Assembly (NCBI GenBank): GCA_963833985.1
Contig: CAWIAD010000002.1
Span: forward strand, 1,536,001 to 1,600,000
Reading direction: 5' to 3'
DNA length: 64,000 bases
Source: an uncultured Planctomycetaceae bacterium
GTDB taxonomy: Bacteria > Planctomycetota > Planctomycetia > Isosphaerales > Isosphaeraceae
Part shown: one piece after another, positions 22,065-32,181 of the stretch
How the letters are laid out: each line of letters starts with the position of its first letter
How positions within the stretch are numbered: the first letter of the stretch is position 1
Program-made: the position numbers and the translations under genes
Notes under the pieces: generated by a model
Told to the model about the DNA's origin: nothing
What the model saw: only the letters and a program-made list of their open reading frames with translations
Databases searched by the model: none

Positions 22065-23538
22065 TCAACTCCCGGGAAATCGCATGTGCTCCGCGAAGCA
22101 GTCCTGAAAGCGCGTGTCGGAGGCAAGCTCGACGTGCTCGGCGGCGGCCAGGATGCCGTCGAGTATGGGCTGGCGACGTGAGCCTGCCAGCAGGAGCATG
22201 CGGGCGCCTCGCAGCGCCGTGTTGCCGGCGGCCGAGGGGTGGTCCGCCCAGGAGGGGAGCAAGCCGATCCCGCGGGCGCTCTGGCCCCGGATGTAATTGC
22301 CGAAGGCCCCGGCAAGGTGGATGCGCGCCGAGGCGACCTTCCGGCCGTCCAGCAGCAGCGCCAGACCGGCGGCCACGGCCCCCTTGGCCAGTTGCAGCTC
22401 GCGGATATCGGCCTGCGACAGGGCCACGGGCCCGGCCAGGGGAAGGGACGACCGGCCCGCGCTCAGGCGTCCGCTCGCCGCGATCCAGCCCAGCTCGAGC
22501 GCCGCGGCTGCCGCGTCGACCAGTCCGCTGCCGCAAAGCCCGCGCGGCGGGCCGCCGCCGATCACGGAGCAAACCAGCGCCTCCATCCACGATCGAGACC
22601 CCGTCGATCGCTCCCGCACCGGCTCGCATGCCACGGCCGATCCGGCCTCCCTCGAAGGCCGGTCCCGCCGCCGTCGAGGCGCAGCGGATCCGGTCCTTGT
22701 TTCCGACCGCGATCTCGCCGTTGGTGCCCAGGTCAAGCAGCACGCTTGGCTCGGCAGCATCGTGCAGGCCCGTCGCCACCAGCCCCGTCAGGACGTCGCT
22801 GCCCACGAACCCTCCCAGGCAGGGCAGGAAGCACGCCGACCGGACGAGCTTCAGCTCCCAGCCCAGCTCGCGTGCCTGGAAGAACCCGGGCCCGAGCACC
22901 AGCGGCCGGAAGGGGACGGCAGCCAGCGGCTCGACGGAGAGGCCGCAGAAGAAGTGGTGCATCGCCGTGTTGCCGACAAGGAAGACGTCTTCCAGGGGCT
23001 GCTCCGCGGCGAGCCTGCGCAGCATGCCGCCGACGGTGCCGCGAATCAAGGCCGTCATGACCCCCGGCTCGGCGAGGTCATGATGAATCCGGCTCATCAG
23101 GTCGGCACCGAAGCGGGCCTGGGGGTTGAGCGCTGTCTCGTGCTTGAGCACCACGCCCGTGCGGCGATCGACCACCTGGACGACCAGGGTGGTCGTGCCA
23201 ACGTCGACCACGGCGCCCAGGCCTTCGGCCGGCTCGAAAGGCACCGGAGCGAGGTCGTCGAGCACGCGCAGCGACCATTGCGCGATCTCGAGCGTGACCG
23301 GCGAGCGTGCCTCGGCCAGGCAGCCCAGCCTCCAGCCGGCCTCGATCTCGGCAGGAGAGAGCGCGGCACGCATCTCCTCGGTGGCGGGCACGTCGCCATC
23401 CAGGACGCGGACCTTGCAGCCTCCGCATTGCGAGATCCCTCCGCAGGGAAATTCGACGCCGCGTTCGAAGAGCAGGTCACGCAGCGACCGCTCGTCGGTC
23501 GGCTCGAGCCGGAGCAGTTCCGATGCAGCGATGGTCAC
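22065..23538 (-). CDS. ASKHA-domain ATP-dependent reductive activator of corrinoid proteins (RACo/DUF4445) with N-terminal 2Fe-2S domain; frameshift near 22581
   Basis: CGGISQCGGCKV, RLGC, VDVGTTT, NPQARFGADLMSRI, DLGTNGE and STAAGPAFEG in one frame. GLCGSG, DIRELQLAKGA and AGAFGNY in a second frame. GTG start overlaps the upstream stop. Confidence 0.9.
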
Positions 23539-24546
23539 GGACGATGACTCTGCGCGAATTCCTTGAAGGCGTTGAGGTTTTCCGTGGGCGTGCCGCGCGG
23601 CACCTCGCACCCTGCGCCGACGATGTACTGCGGGCCAGCGTCCTCGTAGCAGGCCTCCAGGGCGCGCGTGACGCTTTCGGGGGTGCCGTCGCGAACGGCA
23701 CGCACGGGGTCGAGATTTCCCAGCAGCACCTGCCGCGGACCCATGGCCGCCCGCGCTTCCGCCACCGGACTGGGGAAATCGAGATCCACGATGTCCGCGC
23801 CCACGGCGCCCATGCCGCCGAGGATCTTCCGGGTGTTGCCGCAGATGTGCAGCCGGACGCGTGCGCCGGCGGCCTTGATCGCGGCGACCAGTTCCTGCTC
23901 ATACGGCAGCACGAACTTTTCATAGAGTCTTGGCCCGATCAACGACGCCGCGGCGTCGCCGATGCCGATGATGTCGGCGCCCGCCTCGACCTGGCGCTGC
24001 GCGAAGGCGGTCTCCATGGCGACCACGAACTTGAAGAGCCGGTGCACGAACACCGGGTCGTCGTGAAAATCGAGCATGAGCGTATTCATGCCCCTGAGGT
24101 CTGCGCCGATGGCGCAGGGGCCTTCCACCCATCCCTCGACGATGAGCGTACCGGCCGTGCGCTGTTTCAGCATTGCCACCGCGTCGATGCGGTCGCGCAT
24201 GCGTCCTCCCCTCGTCATGAGAGGGATCTCAAGCTTCTCCAGCCGCTCCTTCTCTTGCAGCAGGGCCCGGCTCTCGACGATCGCCGGCGGCTGGTGCTCG
24301 AACCACTCGACGGCACCACCGAGGTCGCTGACCTCGCGCCGGGTCCGAGATCGCCGACACATAATCGAGTCCGTACGTTCCGGCCACCCGCACCTGGGCT
24401 TCGGCCAGCACGCGGTGGTCGGCGGCATAGCCGCGATAGGGAACACCCGCCAGGTCGGCCGCGAACATCATGGTGATGGGCATCAGCGGGAGATGGTCGA
24501 CAGCCCGGCCCTCGATCATGGCCAGCACGCGTTCCTTGCCGTTCAT
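23535..24546 (-). CDS. UroD/MtaA-family (methylcobamide:acceptor) methyltransferase; frameshift near 24336
   Basis: MNGKERVLA...PITMMFAA...ISDPAR|EVSDLG, EGPCA, GIGDAAAS, LHICG, LGNLDPV, GAGCEV. Confidence 0.88.
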
Positions 24547-27456: not shown

Positions 27457-27489
27457 GATGGCCTGCCTGTCTCGCGTGGCCTGATTAGT

Positions 27490-28126
27490 CTAGCCGACGC
27501 CGCACATCCGCCGCGCCAGGGCGACCGCGTTGCTGGCGCTCTCGCCATAGCCGTCGGCACCGATCTCGCTGGCGTACTGCTGGGTGACCGGCGCGCCACC
27601 CACGAGCACCTTCACCCGGTCGCGCACGCCCGCTTGCTTGAGCGCCTCGATCGTGCTCTTCATGGAAGGCATGGTGACCGTGAGCAAGGCTGAGAGGCAG
27701 ACGATCTGGACGCCCTGCTCGCGCACGGCCTCGATGAACTTCTCGGGCGGCACGTCGGCGCCGAGGTCGATCACTTCGAAACCGCCCCCTTCCAGAAGCG
27801 AGGCCACCAGGTTCTTGCCGATATCGTGCAAATCTCCCTTCACGGTGCCGATGGCGACGGTCCCCGTGGGCTTCGCCCCGCTCGGCCAGGAGCGGGCGCA
27901 GCAGTTGCAGAGAGCCCTTCATCGCCCGTGCGGCGAGCAGCAGCTCGGGCACGAAGTACTCTTCTTCCTCGTAGCGTTTGCCCACCTCGTCCATCGCCGG
28001 CACCATGGTGCCCGAGATCAACGCGAGCGGGTCCATGTTCTCGGCAATCGCCTCTCGGGTCACCTCGACGGCCGTCCTGGCGTCGCCGTTCAAAACCGCG
28101 TCATAGAGCTTTTTCAGATCGGCCAT
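27490..28126 (-). CDS. Corrinoid (cobalamin-binding) protein, MtbC/MttC-like; frameshift near 27875
   Basis: Cap domain (PAMDEVGKRYEEEEYFVPELLLAARAMK), then GTVKGDLHDIGKNLV (DxHxxG), SALLTVTM, VGGAPVT, IGADGY. Confidence 0.93.
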
Positions 28127-28154
28127 GGGCTGCACCTCATCTTCGGAACTGGCG

Positions 28155-29457
28155 TCAATGGCGACCGTTGAATTCGCGCACGGCGTCGAACATCGCCACG
28201 ATATTCGCCGTCGGCGTACCGGCCTGAATGTTATGGATGGTGTTGAAGATGAAACCCCCGCCCGGCGCGAAGATCTCGCAGCGCCGGAGCACCTGCTCGC
28301 GAACCTCTGCCGGCGTTCCGAACGGCAAGGTCTGCTGGGTGTCCACGCCACCACCCCAGAAGGTCAACCTGCTGCCGTACTCCTGCTTGAGCCCCTCCGG
28401 CTCCATTCCCGCGGCCGAGCACTGAACGGGGTTGACGATCTCGAAGCCCGCCTCGACGAACGATTCATAGAACCGCTTCACCGATCCGCATGAGTGCTTG
28501 AAGCAGCGCCAGGTCGTTTTGGCGTGGATCCAGCCGCAGATCCGCTTGTAATAAGGGAGCCAGAGCTCACGAAACGTAGGCACCGAGCAGAAGGCCGAGG
28601 TCTGGGTGCCGAAGTCGGTGCCACAGAGGAAGACGGCATCGATCGCATTGCCGATCGCCGAGTGCACCTGCGCCAGGTTCTGTACGCGCGATCTCGGTTT
28701 GCCGTTCGTAGATCTGGTGGATGTAGTCGCGCCGGCTCTTGAGCGACATGTACCACTCACCGATATCGCGAATGCCGCGTGGGTCCTTGAGGAACGGCGC
28801 AGGCACCAGCGCGATATCGCCCAGCGCCGTGCCGCCGAAGCTGGCGATCACGGCCCGGCCGGACTGGCAAGCACGATCGACGTCGGCCTTGATGGCGGCC
28901 AGGTCGTTCTCGTTCAGAAGCTGGAATTCCTCCAGGTTGTCCTCGACGTTCAGGTTCTCGTCGTCCAGGGGGGGCTGCCGGATGATCGCGTCAAAGAAGT
29001 GAAATCCTCGGGGCATGCGCCCGCTTGGCCCGGCCGTCAGATCGCCCTGCGGATAGATCAGGATATCGCCATTTTCGCCGACCGTGGTGCGGAACATGCC
29101 GGGAACGAGCACTTCCAGGCCGTTGAAATCCCAGGTCTTCCAGTCCCTGTTCTCGAAACCGAACATGGTCCGCCGGCGGAACACGCCCTCGACGTCGATG
29201 CCCAGTACGTCTTTCAGATCATCGTCGATCATCCCGAGCATCTGGAACGGCTCATGAACCTTCACGGGCCGCTTTTCCAGGCCATAATGATCGCGGAGCG
29301 CCGCGACGCAACTGACGTGGATGCCCGTCACCGAAGTGCCGCCGAAGTCGATGGGGACCTGGTCCGGCTGCGTGTGTGCCAGCGCGTCGAGCACGCGTTG
29401 CCGGCTCGCAGAGAGTCTGGGTTCCGCCTGAAGTGTCGTCATGGTGCTAACCCTCAT
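28155..29457 (-). CDS. UroD-family methyltransferase; frameshift near 28687
   Basis: SRQRVLDAL.H..PD.VPIDFGGT, LGDIALVP, CGTDFGTQ, FKHSCGS, NPVQCSA, FWGGGVDTQ, HNIQ. Start at 29457 or 29442. Confidence 0.88.
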
Positions 29458-29752
29458 CGGTTAGAGGCAGTGACTTCAAGCCTAGCCGTGCCCGCACAGC
29501 GGGTCAACGAGATGGAGCGCCAAGCGGGTGGATCCGACCAGGACGGATCCCGCCAGGGGCCGGATGCTGGTGCTCAACGACTTCTTTTGATTCAGTGCTT
29601 CCGCCCGCAGCGATTCCGAGCCATCAGGCCGTGGGGCCAGCGACGGCGCAGGCCCGCCAGACGCTATCCGGTGACGTCGAAGGCCCCTACCTGGTGGAGT
29701 CGGCCGGCCACCTGAATCCGGATCCTCTCTTCGACGGCACCCTGGCACTGAG

Positions 29753-30361
29753 TGGTGGGCCTCATTTCATTCGACCCACCCTACCTGTAGATCCGAAGCG
29801 CATTTCGGTGCTGCGGGCCCGTATGGTGGGCCTCATTTCATTCGACCCACCCTACCTGTAGATCCGAAGCGCATTTCGGTGCTGCGGGCCCGTATGGTGG
29901 GCCTCATTTCATTCGACCCACCCTACCTGTGGATCTGACTCGTATTCTGTTGACGTGGTATGGTATGGTGGGCCTCATTTCATTCGACCCACCCTACCTG
30001 TGGATCTGACGTGCATTCCGGTGCTGCGGGCCCGTAGAGGCTGCTGAGTGGTGGGCCTCATTTCATTCGACCCACCCTACCTGTGGATCTGACTCGTATT
30101 CCGTTGACGTGGTATGGTATGGTGGGCCTCATTTCATTCGACCCACCCTACCTGTAGATCCGAAGCGCATTTCGGTGCTGCGGGCCCGTATGGTGGGCCT
30201 CATTTCATTCGACCCACCCTACCTGTGGATCTGACTCGTATTCCGTTGACGTGGTATGGTATGGTGGGCCTCATTTCATTCGACCCACCCTACCTGTGGA
30301 TCTGAATTGTATTCTGTTGAGGTGGTATCGTAGGGTGGGTCGAGCGCAGCGAGGCCCACCA
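29753..30361 (-). repeat. REP array: eight direct 32-bp GTAG-REP copies (71-bp period, one 83-bp) plus one inverted REP
   Basis: TGGTGGGCCTCATTTCATTCGACCCACCCTAC starts at 29753, 29824, 29895, 29966, 30049, 30120, 30191 and 30262. Inverted variant GTAGGGTGGGTCGAGCGCAGCGAGGCCCACCA at 30330-30361. Confidence 0.95.
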
Positions 30362-30377
30362 GAGGCGGTGTCGCGGA

Positions 30378-30929
30378 TCATTCCCATCCTGGACCGGTGG
30401 CATCGGGGCAGGGGTCGTGGCCGCCCCAGTCCGGATCGTATTCGCCTTCCTTCACGAACCGATGAAACGTGGACCAGGGATAATCCGTGACCCGCTTGAC
30501 GAGCCCGTGCTTCACCGGGTTCCAGTGAACATAATCCACGCAACGCTTCAGATCATCCTCGTCCCGGCAGGCATGCTCCCAGTAGCGACGTTGCCAGATG
30601 CCGCGTTCCCGATGCCGCATGCGTGACTCAGACACCAGTGCTTCCTCGCCACCAGAGGCCAGGGACAATCGGCTGAACTGCTCCTTGATCTGCGCCCACC
30701 GGAGAGGGTATCTCTCATCTCCTGGAGGCAAGGCCCAGACCGTATGGAGGTGATCGGGCAAGAGCACGATGGCGAGCAAGCCGAACGGCTGTTTCTTTCT
30801 GACCGTCCGGATCGCGGTGCGCAGGCAGGCCCGAGCCGTGTCCGTGGTCAAGATCGGCCGGCGATCCTGCGTGACAACGGTGAAAAAGTACGTTCCGCCA
30901 GGGATGAAGAGCCGGCGGTACTCGGGCAT
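30378..30929 (-). CDS. rayT: REP-associated tyrosine transposase (RAYT/TnpA-REP, HUH Y1 family)
   Basis: M..YRR...PGGTYFFTVVT, LPDHLH (HUH), IWQRRYWEH, DYVHWNPVKHGLV, YPWSTF. Flanked on both sides by REPs. Confidence 0.95.
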   Translation of the reverse strand: MPEYRRLFIPGGTYFFTVVTQDRRPILTTDTARACLRTAIRTVRKKQPFGLLAIVLLPDHLHTVWALPPGDERYPLRWAQIKEQFSRLSLASGGEEALVSESRMRHRERGIWQRRYWEHACRDEDDLKRCVDYVHWNPVKHGLVKRVTDYPWSTFHRFVKEGEYDPDWGGHDPCPDATGPGWE

Positions 30930-30949
30930 GCTCGTTGTCGCGAAAGGAA

Positions 30950-31063
30950 TGGTGGGCCTCGCTTTGCTCGACCCACCCTACAATAGCGAAACTACCGGAC
31001 CATATGCAAAGCATCGATGAGATCCAAAGTTCGGTAGGGTGGGTCGAGCGTAGCGAGGCCCAC
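30950..31063. repeat. Inverted REP pair (REPIN-like) upstream of rayT
   Basis: TGGTGGGCCTCGCTTTGCTCGACCCACCCTAC (30950-30981) and GTAGGGTGGGTCGAGCGTAGCGAGGCCCAC (31034-31063). Confidence 0.9.
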
Positions 31064-31281
31064 ACACAGAACGGTTCGCGACGCGTTTCTTGCAGCGCGG
31101 GCTTGCGATCGAGGAACCTTGGGGTGGTGAATGGGCTCCCCGCAGTCCGAACCTGGGCCGCCCTGGAGGTCCAGCGACAATTCTCGTTCCGCGCGACCGA
31201 CTTCCGGACCGGCCAGGCGCCGGCTATGATCGAGCCGAGCGGAAGACGCGGCAAGCGCGGATAGAATTTGAGAGCCAGTTC

Positions 31282-32181
31282 GTGGACACCATCCTGACGC
31301 TCACCGGCGATCGGCGATCGCTTCAAAACCGTCACCTTCTTGTCCTTGCAACCTCGCTCATACTGATGGCAACGCGAGCGGTCATGACAGCAGAACAAGG
31401 CAAAGTGCGCGGTTCAGAAGGCTGGCGCCTGGCCTGCCGGCTGGCGAGCTACGGCAAGTTCCAGGATGGGGCCTGGGAGCACTTGCCGGCGATCGGCGTG
31501 CACCATGTGTTTCTGAGCGTCCCGGAACCGGAACAGGTCGAATCCGTCCGACGGCAACTCCAGGCGCATGGGCTCACGCCCTTGGTGCTGCGCGGGCAGG
31601 CCGACCTGGGAGACGCCGGCAGCGTGGAGACGCTGGCGGGTCAGCTTGCCGTATGCGAGCAGATGGGTGTTCATTTCATGTTCCTTTCACCCAGGCACAC
31701 CGGCGCCAGCAAGGAGCTTGCTTACCAGCGGCTCCGCCAAGTGGGCGAGATCGCCAGGCGCCACCACGTGACCGTGGTTTTGGAGACGCACCCGGACCTG
31801 GGAACCAATGCGGATGTCCAGCTCGAGACCATGAAGCAGGTCGATCATCCCAACATCCGCGTCAACTTCGACACGGGGAACATCACCTTCTACAACCAGG
31901 GGACCGATGCGGTTTCCGAACTGAAGAAGATCATCGGCTACGTGGCGACCGTCGAGCTCAAGGATCACGATGGGCGCCCAGGCAGCTGGACGTTTCCTGC
32001 GCTCGGCCAGGGAAAGGTCGACCTTGCGGGAGTGCTCGGGGTCCTGGAAGCCCACCATTACGCCGGACCGATCACCATCGAGGTTGAGGGGATCGAGGGC
32101 CAGCCCTGGGACCAGGCGCAGACCCGGCAAGCGATCGCGGATTCGGTCGCTCACCTGCGCAGACTCGCGCCTTTCCGGTGA
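31282..32181 (+). CDS. Sugar phosphate isomerase/epimerase (TIM barrel), possibly exported
   Basis: VLETHP, VNFDTGN, VELKD, ITIEVEG. Start uncertain (GTG 31282 or ATG 31366/31384). Confidence 0.85.
   Translation: MDTILTLTGDRRSLQNRHLLVLATSLILMATRAVMTAEQGKVRGSEGWRLACRLASYGKFQDGAWEHLPAIGVHHVFLSVPEPEQVESVRRQLQAHGLTPLVLRGQADLGDAGSVETLAGQLAVCEQMGVHFMFLSPRHTGASKELAYQRLRQVGEIARRHHVTVVLETHPDLGTNADVQLETMKQVDHPNIRVNFDTGNITFYNQGTDAVSELKKIIGYVATVELKDHDGRPGSWTFPALGQGKVDLAGVLGVLEAHHYAGPITIEVEGIEGQPWDQAQTRQAIADSVAHLRRLAPFR

What the first reader, a model, noticed from the sequence alone, without database searches (positions are those of the whole stretch)
29753..31063. RAYT transposase beside a CRISPR-like, unidirectional array of identical REP repeats
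Seen: eight identical 32-bp repeats, all in one orientation, separated by 39-bp spacers (one 51 bp). The array ends in an inverted REP 16 bp from the stop of an intact rayT, and a second inverted REP pair lies upstream of the gene. Established: RAYTs are HUH nucleases that recognise GTAG-hairpin REPs, and REPs commonly occur as inverted doublets (REPINs/BIMEs). Inference: a head-to-tail repeat-spacer array with CRISPR-like geometry suggests RAYT-driven local amplification, possibly giving a processed RNA or ssDNA substrate. The array repeats have a different loop (GAATGAAATGA) from the three RAYT-proximal REPs (GAGCGCAGCGA, GAGCAAAGCGA, GAGCGTAGCGA). This is the best candidate for an undescribed system in the window.
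Basis: partly seen in the sequence, partly recalled or inferred. Interest (0 to 1): 0.8.

Follow-up and report, generated by a model that had tools for sequence, protein, structure and literature searches.

The report
Tandem-duplicated REP repeats beside RAYT gene
The CRISPR-looking array is real, but its spacers are two recurring sequences, not unique ones, so it is a tandem pile-up of an ordinary bacterial hairpin repeat (REP) next to its known transposase gene, likely made by replication slippage, and not a new immune or memory system.

Summary
The coordinates are right: eight identical 32-nt GTAG-hairpin REPs, an inverted REP, an intact rayT and an upstream inverted pair. They are two related types (A x3, B x3) plus one mosaic, and B copies the spacer of the terminal inverted doublet. 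The 71-nt period equals the distance between two CCCACC direct repeats in that doublet, so the array is a tandem duplication of its outer half. The true CRISPR arrays and cas1 lie on the other contig. Same-strand REP runs occur at 11 places in this genome, 9 away from a RAYT gene, and beside 12 of 177 homologous RAYT genes from other genomes. None has a fixed period with unique spacers. The 'different loop' is a base-pair-preserving variant also found in ordinary REPs elsewhere. Tandem REP clusters and a RAYT amplification model are published, and the scan noted similar clusters in other genomes. One point stays open: all seven units resume at the T of the CC|TAC site that E. coli RAYT cuts in vitro, so RAYT-primed amplification (about 0.3) rivals slippage (about 0.6). 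New member of a known kind; low interest.

The parts
29753..30293 (-). Tandem array of 8 identical 32-nt REPs (GTAG tag, 8-bp stem, 11-nt loop on the - strand); starts 29753, 29824, 29895, 29966, 30049, 30120, 30191, 30262
29785..29823 (-). Spacer type A (identical copies at 29856-29894 and 30152-30190); 14 of 39 positions differ from type B
29927..29965 (-). Spacer type B (copies at 30081-30119 and 30223-30261, 97-100% identical); 4-5 of 36 positions differ from the terminal doublet spacer
29998..30048 (-). 51-nt spacer s4: A/B mosaic plus 12 extra nt; marks the joint of the 296-nt higher-order duplication; the only junction with a C|TAC join
29748..30339 (.). Two 296-nt blocks of four units each (29748-30043 and 30044-30339), 266 of 296 positions identical
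30294..30329 (.). 36-nt spacer of the terminal GTAG-inside inverted doublet; likely template of the array spacers
30330..30361 (+). Inverted REP, the gene-proximal downstream REP (GC-type loop); pairs with the last array copy into a long hairpin (z -6.7); its complement carries the CC|TAC site
30378..30929 (-). rayT / tnpA-REP, 183 aa, open frame; H60-L-H62 and Y133 (aligned to E. coli Y115); W112, Q113, E118, H119, R122 match the E. coli GTAG-contact residues
30950..30981 (-). Gene-proximal upstream REP
31034..31063 (+). Outer upstream REP; forms an inverted doublet with 30950-30981 (z -9.5)

Best explanation
This is a RAYT (TnpA-REP) gene flanked by inverted REP doublets, and the outer half of the downstream doublet (one spacer plus one REP) has been duplicated head-to-tail, likely by replication slippage or unequal recombination between short direct repeats. 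Because each REP is a palindrome, the two partners of a GTAG-inside doublet are also imperfect direct repeats on one strand. Shown: they share CCCACC exactly 71 nt apart, which is the array period. Inferred: mispairing there adds one spacer-plus-REP unit without a new inverted partner; further rounds between the now identical REPs, one 296-nt block duplication and patchy exchange between units would give the order A,A,B,mosaic,B,A,B. Inferred: the AT-type loop was in the founding copy and was amplified with it. The array is predicted to be a passive cluster of RAYT-binding hairpins, with no spacer acquisition and no guide function. The identity as a tandem-duplicated REP cluster is about 0.9; the slippage route is about 0.6.
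For: Spacers recur: 4 distinct of 7, nearest-neighbour identity 0.94-0.96, against 0.58 for random sets and 0.61 for a true CRISPR array of this genome. Type B matches the terminal doublet spacer at 31-32 of 36 positions. The CCCACC distance in the doublet is 71. The 296-nt block duplication and the mosaic spacer show unit-level recombination. In the genome, 11 of 84 REP clusters have a same-strand run of 3 or more, and 9 of these lie over 600 nt from a RAYT gene; four of them show junction overlaps of 5, 13, 25 and 37 nt. The two other arrays anchored on an inverted REP (paralogue L200; L065 with 12 copies) also reuse the doublet spacer, but join at different letters, not at C|T. L046 duplicated the first codons of rayT together with the REP. 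Six of 7 junctions here have A, not C, before the T, whereas E. coli TnpA-REP strand transfer needs a 3' C (PMC8266576 passage).
Against: All 7 units resume exactly at the T of the CC|TAC site that E. coli TnpA-REP cuts in vitro (iREPII; PMC3333891). The s4 junction is a clean C|T join with only about 1 nt of shared sequence on its left. Simple crossover in CCCACC predicts C, not the observed A, at the next base, so one extra change or a mismatched 3' end is needed. Both RAYT genes that use this REP family have such a run beside them (clusters: 2 of 4 near a RAYT against 9 of 80 elsewhere; Fisher p = 0.08). Nunvar et al. doubt that slippage or recombination alone explains BIME variation (PMC2817692 passage). 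The origin of spacer A (14 differences from B while the REPs are invariant) is not explained by one duplication series.
Confidence: 0.6

Rival explanations
1. RAYT-primed amplification (Ton-Hoang et al. Fig. 7B applied to a GTAG-inside doublet). RAYT bound to the outer REP would nick at CC|TAC in the inverted partner, the 3' end would prime strand-displacement synthesis, and a second nick just 3' of the REP would be joined to the first 5' end, adding one spacer-plus-REP unit each round.
For: 7 of 7 units start at the T of the iREPII-type site. s4 has a C|TAC join. A C|T site lies 1 nt past the REP 3' end in the first and fifth copies. The gene is intact with HUH, Tyr and GTAG-contact residues. 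Both cognate RAYT loci of the genome carry such runs. In vitro iREP-to-linker recombination adding a REP is published (PMC3333891).
Against: The model predicts a 72-nt unit ending in C; the six regular units are 71 nt and end in A. The L200 and L065 junctions are not at C|T. Only 1 of the 15 closest homologues has a run of 3 or more. The enrichment near RAYT is not significant (p = 0.08).
Confidence: 0.3
2. The array is a selected regulatory element: eight hairpins downstream of rayT and upstream of a URO-D-family gene that would stop read-through or stabilise RNA.
For: The array lies between two genes on the same strand. The REPs are invariant while the spacers diverge. REPs have such roles in E. 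coli (introductions of PMC3333891 and PMC2817692).
Against: Both relatives in which the two flanking genes were found on one contig close together (G012, G001) lack the RAYT and the REPs there, so the element is not conserved. The terminator scan gave only 3 weak junction hits on the opposite strand against 1.1 +/- 1.4 expected.
Confidence: 0.05
3. Assembly artefact: fewer real copies, expanded by the assembler.
For: The neighbouring URO-D gene is split by a frameshift relative to relatives, so the assembly may hold uncorrected errors.
Against: The units carry an ordered, non-uniform pattern (A,A,B,mosaic,B,A,B,terminal) with private variants. The genome has 2 contigs, which suggests long reads that span 0.6 kb (inference). 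The same architecture occurs in an unrelated genome (L065).
Confidence: 0.03
4. A CRISPR-like system in which RAYT writes spacers or uses processed repeat-spacer units as guides.
For: Geometry only: a 32-nt palindromic repeat with 39-nt spacers, in one orientation, beside a nuclease gene.
Against: The spacers are two recurring types copied from local DNA, with no hit elsewhere in the genome beyond 14-15-nt chance matches and none in 50,697 phage records. cas1 is only on the other contig. None of 180 RAYT loci showed a fixed-period run with unique spacers.
Confidence: 0.02

Closest known systems
REPtron: TnpA-REP / RAYT of E. coli type (group 2, subclass 2.2) with flanking REPs and BIMEs (PMC2817692, PMC3333891, PMC6006769, PMC8266576)
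   Same: HUH/Y1 protein closest in the PDB to E. coli TnpA-REP (4ER8). The gene is bracketed by two inward-facing GTAG REPs, the commonest layout among homologues (85 of 180 loci). The REPs are long with an irregular loop, the family is dispersed in the genome, and a REP cluster adjoins the gene.
   Different: The cluster is same-strand, not alternating as in BIME-2. The residue matching E. coli K82 is E83. The host is probably a planctomycete (the ten best genome hits are Planctomycetota).
Tandemly repeated REP singlets: evenly spaced GI arrays of P. fluorescens SBW25 (PMC3116915); head-tail dimers and 'singletons reiterated in tandem with flanking DNA' (PMC3733652)
   Same: Evenly spaced same-strand REPs, each repeated with its flanking segment.
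   Different: Here the run is anchored on an inverted partner next to rayT, has two diverged spacer types, and reuses the doublet's own spacer. Head-tail arrangements are said to be under-represented in most genomes but dominate in this one (27 of 39 multi-REP clusters, counted by hand).
False-CRISPR elements, tandem-repeat class (PMC5294841)
   Same: Repeat-spacer geometry, no spacer diversity, no adjacent cas genes, called by Tandem Repeats Finder.
   Different: The repeat has a known identity (a REP) and a cognate enzyme next to it.
CRISPR arrays
   Same: Repeat and spacer lengths, palindromic repeat, one orientation.
   Different: Spacers are not unique and not foreign, there is no cas gene nearby, and the repeat belongs to a dispersed family of about 150 copies.

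Membership tests
REPtron (RAYT with cognate REPs) | Protein belongs to the REP-associated tyrosine transposase family | tested here: met
   NF047646 196 bits, cut-off 80; Y1_Tnp over cut-off; PDB 4ER8 E 1.3e-41
REPtron (RAYT with cognate REPs) | HUH motif, catalytic Tyr and GTAG-contact residues | tested here: met
   H60-L-H62, Y133, W112, Q113, E118, H119, R122 (E. coli numbering from passages)
REPtron (RAYT with cognate REPs) | Gene flanked by two inverted GTAG-hairpin REPs | tested here: met
   30950-30981(-) and 30330-30361(+)
REPtron (RAYT with cognate REPs) | Cognate REPs dispersed in the host genome | tested here: met
   158 hits in 84 clusters, shared with one paralogous RAYT; 72 matches to the narrower pattern against 0-5 in each of 13 same-genus genomes
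REPtron (RAYT with cognate REPs) | Enzyme cleaves and rejoins ssREP DNA at C|T | not testable with these tools
   Needs purified protein
RAYT group 2 / subclass 2.2 | Placement in the group 2 clade | not tested
   No tree or subclass profile was run; inferred from similarity to 4ER8 and from the long irregular REP
BIME-2 / REPIN tandem cluster | Repeated unit holds a REP and an inverted REP (alternating orientation) | tested here: not met
   The unit is one REP plus a spacer; only the terminal unit has an inverted partner. An alternating cluster exists elsewhere, at C2:2048066
Tandemly repeated REP singlets (head-tail cluster) | Evenly spaced same-strand REPs repeated with flanking DNA | tested here: met
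CRISPR array | Unique, mutually unrelated spacers | tested here: not met
   4 distinct of 7, nearest-neighbour identity 0.94; the true arrays of this genome have 98 of 100, 69 of 69 and 18 of 18 distinct
CRISPR array | Associated cas genes | tested here: not met
   cas1 matches only on contig C1, beside the unique-spacer arrays; other cas families were not searched
CRISPR array | Spacers match foreign DNA | tested here: inconclusive
   No match for types A and B in 50,697 phage records; a blank is common for real spacers too, but type B matches the adjacent doublet spacer
CRISPR array | Processing into unit-length RNAs | not testable with these tools
   No sequencing run was listed

The most novel reading that the evidence does not exclude
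The array is a genomic footprint of RAYT-primed amplification: each unit begins at the mapped iREPII cut site (CC|TAC) of the neighbouring inverted REP. It would be a natural product of the amplification model proposed in 2012 for E. coli, and a compact locus in which to show that an active RAYT grows same-strand REP arrays in cis, in a genome where head-to-tail REP clusters outnumber inverted ones.
Probability: 0.3. Interest if true: 0.45.

Novelty: new member of a known kind. Interest (0 to 1): 0.2.

Why it matters
As most likely read, it matters little: it is one more tandem REP cluster at a RAYT locus, and a good example of a false CRISPR. Its one useful property is that the start of the repeated unit can be placed to the base and coincides with a known TnpA-REP cut site. 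The papers read call the in vivo mechanism of REP amplification unknown. If RAYT, and not host slippage, made this array, the locus would be a small, defined substrate for testing that question.

Tried and rejected
Raw reads and RNA: no sequencing run was listed for 29000-31800, so array length and expression are untested; this blank is no evidence either way. Rfam at the E-value threshold gave 3 weak microRNA-precursor matches on the upstream hairpin, far below the gathering scores, and none on the array; rejected as chance. Promoter scan: 0 sites. Spacer search in phages: no match; plasmids were not searched. The best full-length match was 66% identical, so no sister strain was available for a copy-number comparison. 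The 81% match in G009 (L191) is an internally deleted rayT with a single downstream REP. The idea that the AT-type loop marks a special array repeat was rejected. A common C|T junction across arrays was looked for and not found outside this locus; the boundary finder there fails where units differ by indels, so several of its 19 rows are uninformative. The first REP detector missed the paralogue array and was loosened. Supplements of the cited papers were not read; Table S3 and Fig. S8 of PMC3116915 and the additional files of PMC2817692 may describe arrays closer to this one.

Full report
Observation. Eight exact 32-nt repeats start at 29753, 29824, 29895, 29966, 30049, 30120, 30191 and 30262, with six spacers of 39 nt and one of 51 nt; 36 nt further on is an inverted copy at 30330-30361. 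On the - strand each repeat is a GTAG tag followed by an 8-bp stem and an 11-nt loop. The inverted copy ends 16 nt before the stop of ORF 30378-30929(-), and a second inverted pair lies at 30950-30981 and 31034-31063. The ORF is a RAYT: NCBIfam NF047646 at 196 bits against a cut-off of 80, and its only PDB relative is E. coli TnpA-REP, 4ER8, E 1.3e-41. It keeps H60-L-H62, Y133 (aligned to E. coli Y115) and W112, Q113, E118, H119, R122, the positions named for GTAG contact in PMC6006769 (passages). The host is probably a planctomycete, since the ten best genome hits are Planctomycetota.

The spacers are not unique. s1, s2 and s6 are identical (type A). s3, s5 and s7 are 97-100% identical (type B). 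s4 is an A/B mosaic with 12 extra nt. A and B are related, with 25 of 39 positions identical. Type B matches the 36-nt spacer of the terminal inverted doublet at 31-32 of 36 positions. The array is also two 296-nt blocks that agree at 266 positions. As a control, a geometry scan of the whole genome gave six arrays. The three rows beside cas1 on contig C1 have 98 of 100, 69 of 69 and 18 of 18 distinct spacers; this array has 4 of 7, with nearest-neighbour identity 0.94. cas1 matches only on C1; other cas families were not searched. Types A and B match nothing in 50,697 phage records and only 14-15-nt chance words elsewhere in the genome. PMC5294841 (passages) calls such elements false CRISPRs of the tandem-repeat class.

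How the unit arose. On the REP strand, the inverted REP and the first array REP both end in CCCACC, and these two hexamers are exactly 71 nt apart, which is the period. The repeated unit is therefore the outer half of the terminal doublet: the last three bases of the inverted tag, the spacer, and one REP. Two routes give this. Slippage or unequal recombination at the hexamer predicts the right length but C where A is seen, so it needs one more change or extension from a mismatched end. RAYT-primed amplification (PMC3333891, passages and section 25) starts at the iREPII cut site within CTAC, and all 7 units do resume at that T. But it predicts a 72-nt unit ending in C, and E. coli strand transfer needs a 3' C (PMC8266576, passages); six of the 7 junctions have A, and only s4 has a clean C|T join. 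Two other arrays anchored on an inverted REP were found, the paralogue L200 (4 copies, period 72) and L065 (Dokdonella, 12 copies, period about 52). Both also reuse the doublet spacer, but neither joins at C|T. I therefore put slippage at about 0.6 and RAYT priming at about 0.3. The origin of spacer A, 14 changes from B while the REPs are invariant, is unexplained; it may come from a second doublet since lost (inference).

Is it special in this genome? No. A permissive pattern found 158 REPs of this family in 84 clusters. Eleven clusters have a same-strand run of 3 or more; 9 of them lie more than 600 nt from a RAYT gene, one of these about 3 kb from the paralogue. Four of the 9 show junction overlaps of 5-37 nt. 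Of 39 clusters with two or more REPs, 27 are same-strand only (counted by hand; degenerate inverted partners may be missed). Both RAYT genes that use this REP family do have a run beside them: 2 of 4 near-RAYT clusters against 9 of 80 others, Fisher p = 0.08. This is a hint of local activity, not proof.

Does it recur in homologues? I examined 185 loci (L001-L094, L111-L201), leaving out the 16 weaker matches L095-L110; 5 duplicates were dropped, leaving 180, of which 3 are from this genome and 134 have 600 nt on both sides. A same-strand run of 3 or more occurs in 14 of 180 (12 of 177 from other genomes), a run of 5 or more in 6, and a run of 8 or more in 2. An inverted doublet occurs in 82, and the layout of one inward-facing REP on each side in 85. 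Seven of the 12 runs have repeated spacers (identity 0.88-1.0). The other five (L041, L053, L076, L086, L094) have low spacer identity; in the units printed, L041, L053 and L076 hold partial or degenerate REPs, L086 has three copies 121 and 113 nt apart with unrelated intervals, and L094 is a short run at 25 and 24 nt. None has a fixed period with unique spacers. In L046 the unit includes the first codons of rayT, as plain duplication of flanking DNA would give. Only 1 of the 15 closest homologues has a run. The detector keeps one REP family per locus and can miss degenerate copies. At the syntenic site, G012 has 81 nt where the window has about 1.7 kb, and G001 also lacks the RAYT and these REPs, so the whole element is lineage-specific here.

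The loop. GAATGAAATGA differs from GAGCGNAGCGA by two double changes that keep the inner 2-bp stem complementary, although the folding program leaves it open (-6.2 against -7.2 kcal/mol). Among 87 such loops at homologous loci, 84 are GC/GC, one AT/AT, one AC/GT and one non-complementary. The AT loop occurs in an ordinary REP flanking the RAYT of L044, and in one of 13 same-genus genomes (G001), in an inverted doublet and two single REPs. In this genome it occurs only in the array, as expected of a founder variant amplified locally.

Comparison with what is known. [quoted passage not shown] PMC2817692 (passages) finds one third of rayt genes joined to BIMEs and proposes RAYT-driven rolling-circle growth. 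PMC3337134 (whole text) says that no mechanism for tandem clusters had been put forward. In three searches and the passages read I saw no report of a same-strand array whose junction was mapped to the iREPII site in a genome; supplements were not read and most subscription papers are not held. The locus meets the testable criteria of a REPtron and of a tandem REP-singlet cluster. It fails those of BIME-2 (no alternation) and of CRISPR (spacers, cas). Earlier notes of this scan reached similar verdicts for arrays in other genomes; they are unchecked and were not used as support.

Verdict. A real feature, correctly located, and a new member of a known kind. The CRISPR-like reading is rejected (about 0.02). 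The residual interest is the junction at a known cut site, which makes the locus a possible test case for RAYT-primed amplification. Reads and RNA could not be examined. Interest 0.2.

Noticed in passing
window 28155-29457 (-): A URO-D-family gene is split into two overlapping frames (28567-29457 and 28155-28760); seven same-genus relatives have one open frame of 434-494 aa. ORF pairs at 23535-24546 and 27485-28354 look similarly split. Either assembly indels or decay.
   Followed up: partly
G000 whole genome: [quoted passage not shown] Several pairs recur at fixed periods of 89 and about 291 nt, suggesting larger repeated modules that carry one REP.
   Followed up: partly
L200 (G000:C1:528500-532100): A paralogous RAYT (50% identical) has its own same-strand array (4 copies, period 72) anchored on an inverted REP and reusing the doublet spacer; related units lie on both sides of the gene.
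   Followed up: yes
L065, upstream of its RAYT: A Dokdonella genome has 12 same-strand REPs at a period of about 52 nt, anchored on an inverted REP next to rayT: the same architecture in another phylum.
   Followed up: partly
L046, upstream of its RAYT: Five tandem 108-nt units each contain a REP and the first codons of the rayT gene.
   Followed up: no
G000:C2:2427281-2427676 and C2:3098979-3099374: Two distant Y1 transposase genes (24% identical to this RAYT) are flanked by stuttering arrays of a non-hairpin motif on both sides; earlier scan notes describe similar elements in this genome as TIRtron-like.
   Followed up: no
G000:C2:2735352-2735388: A 'double-foot' REP with GTAG and its complement at both ends closes a same-strand run of six, the product expected from a deletion inside an inverted doublet.
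   Followed up: no
L191 (G009:C2:456500-460500): The closest relative of this rayT (81% over residues 136-183) has lost most of its coding region by an internal deletion but keeps flanking REPs.
   Followed up: partly
G000:C1:682112-690698 and C1:1210143-1218182: Two genuine CRISPR loci with cas1 (about 101 and about 90 repeats); the first cas1 is in three pieces.
   Followed up: no
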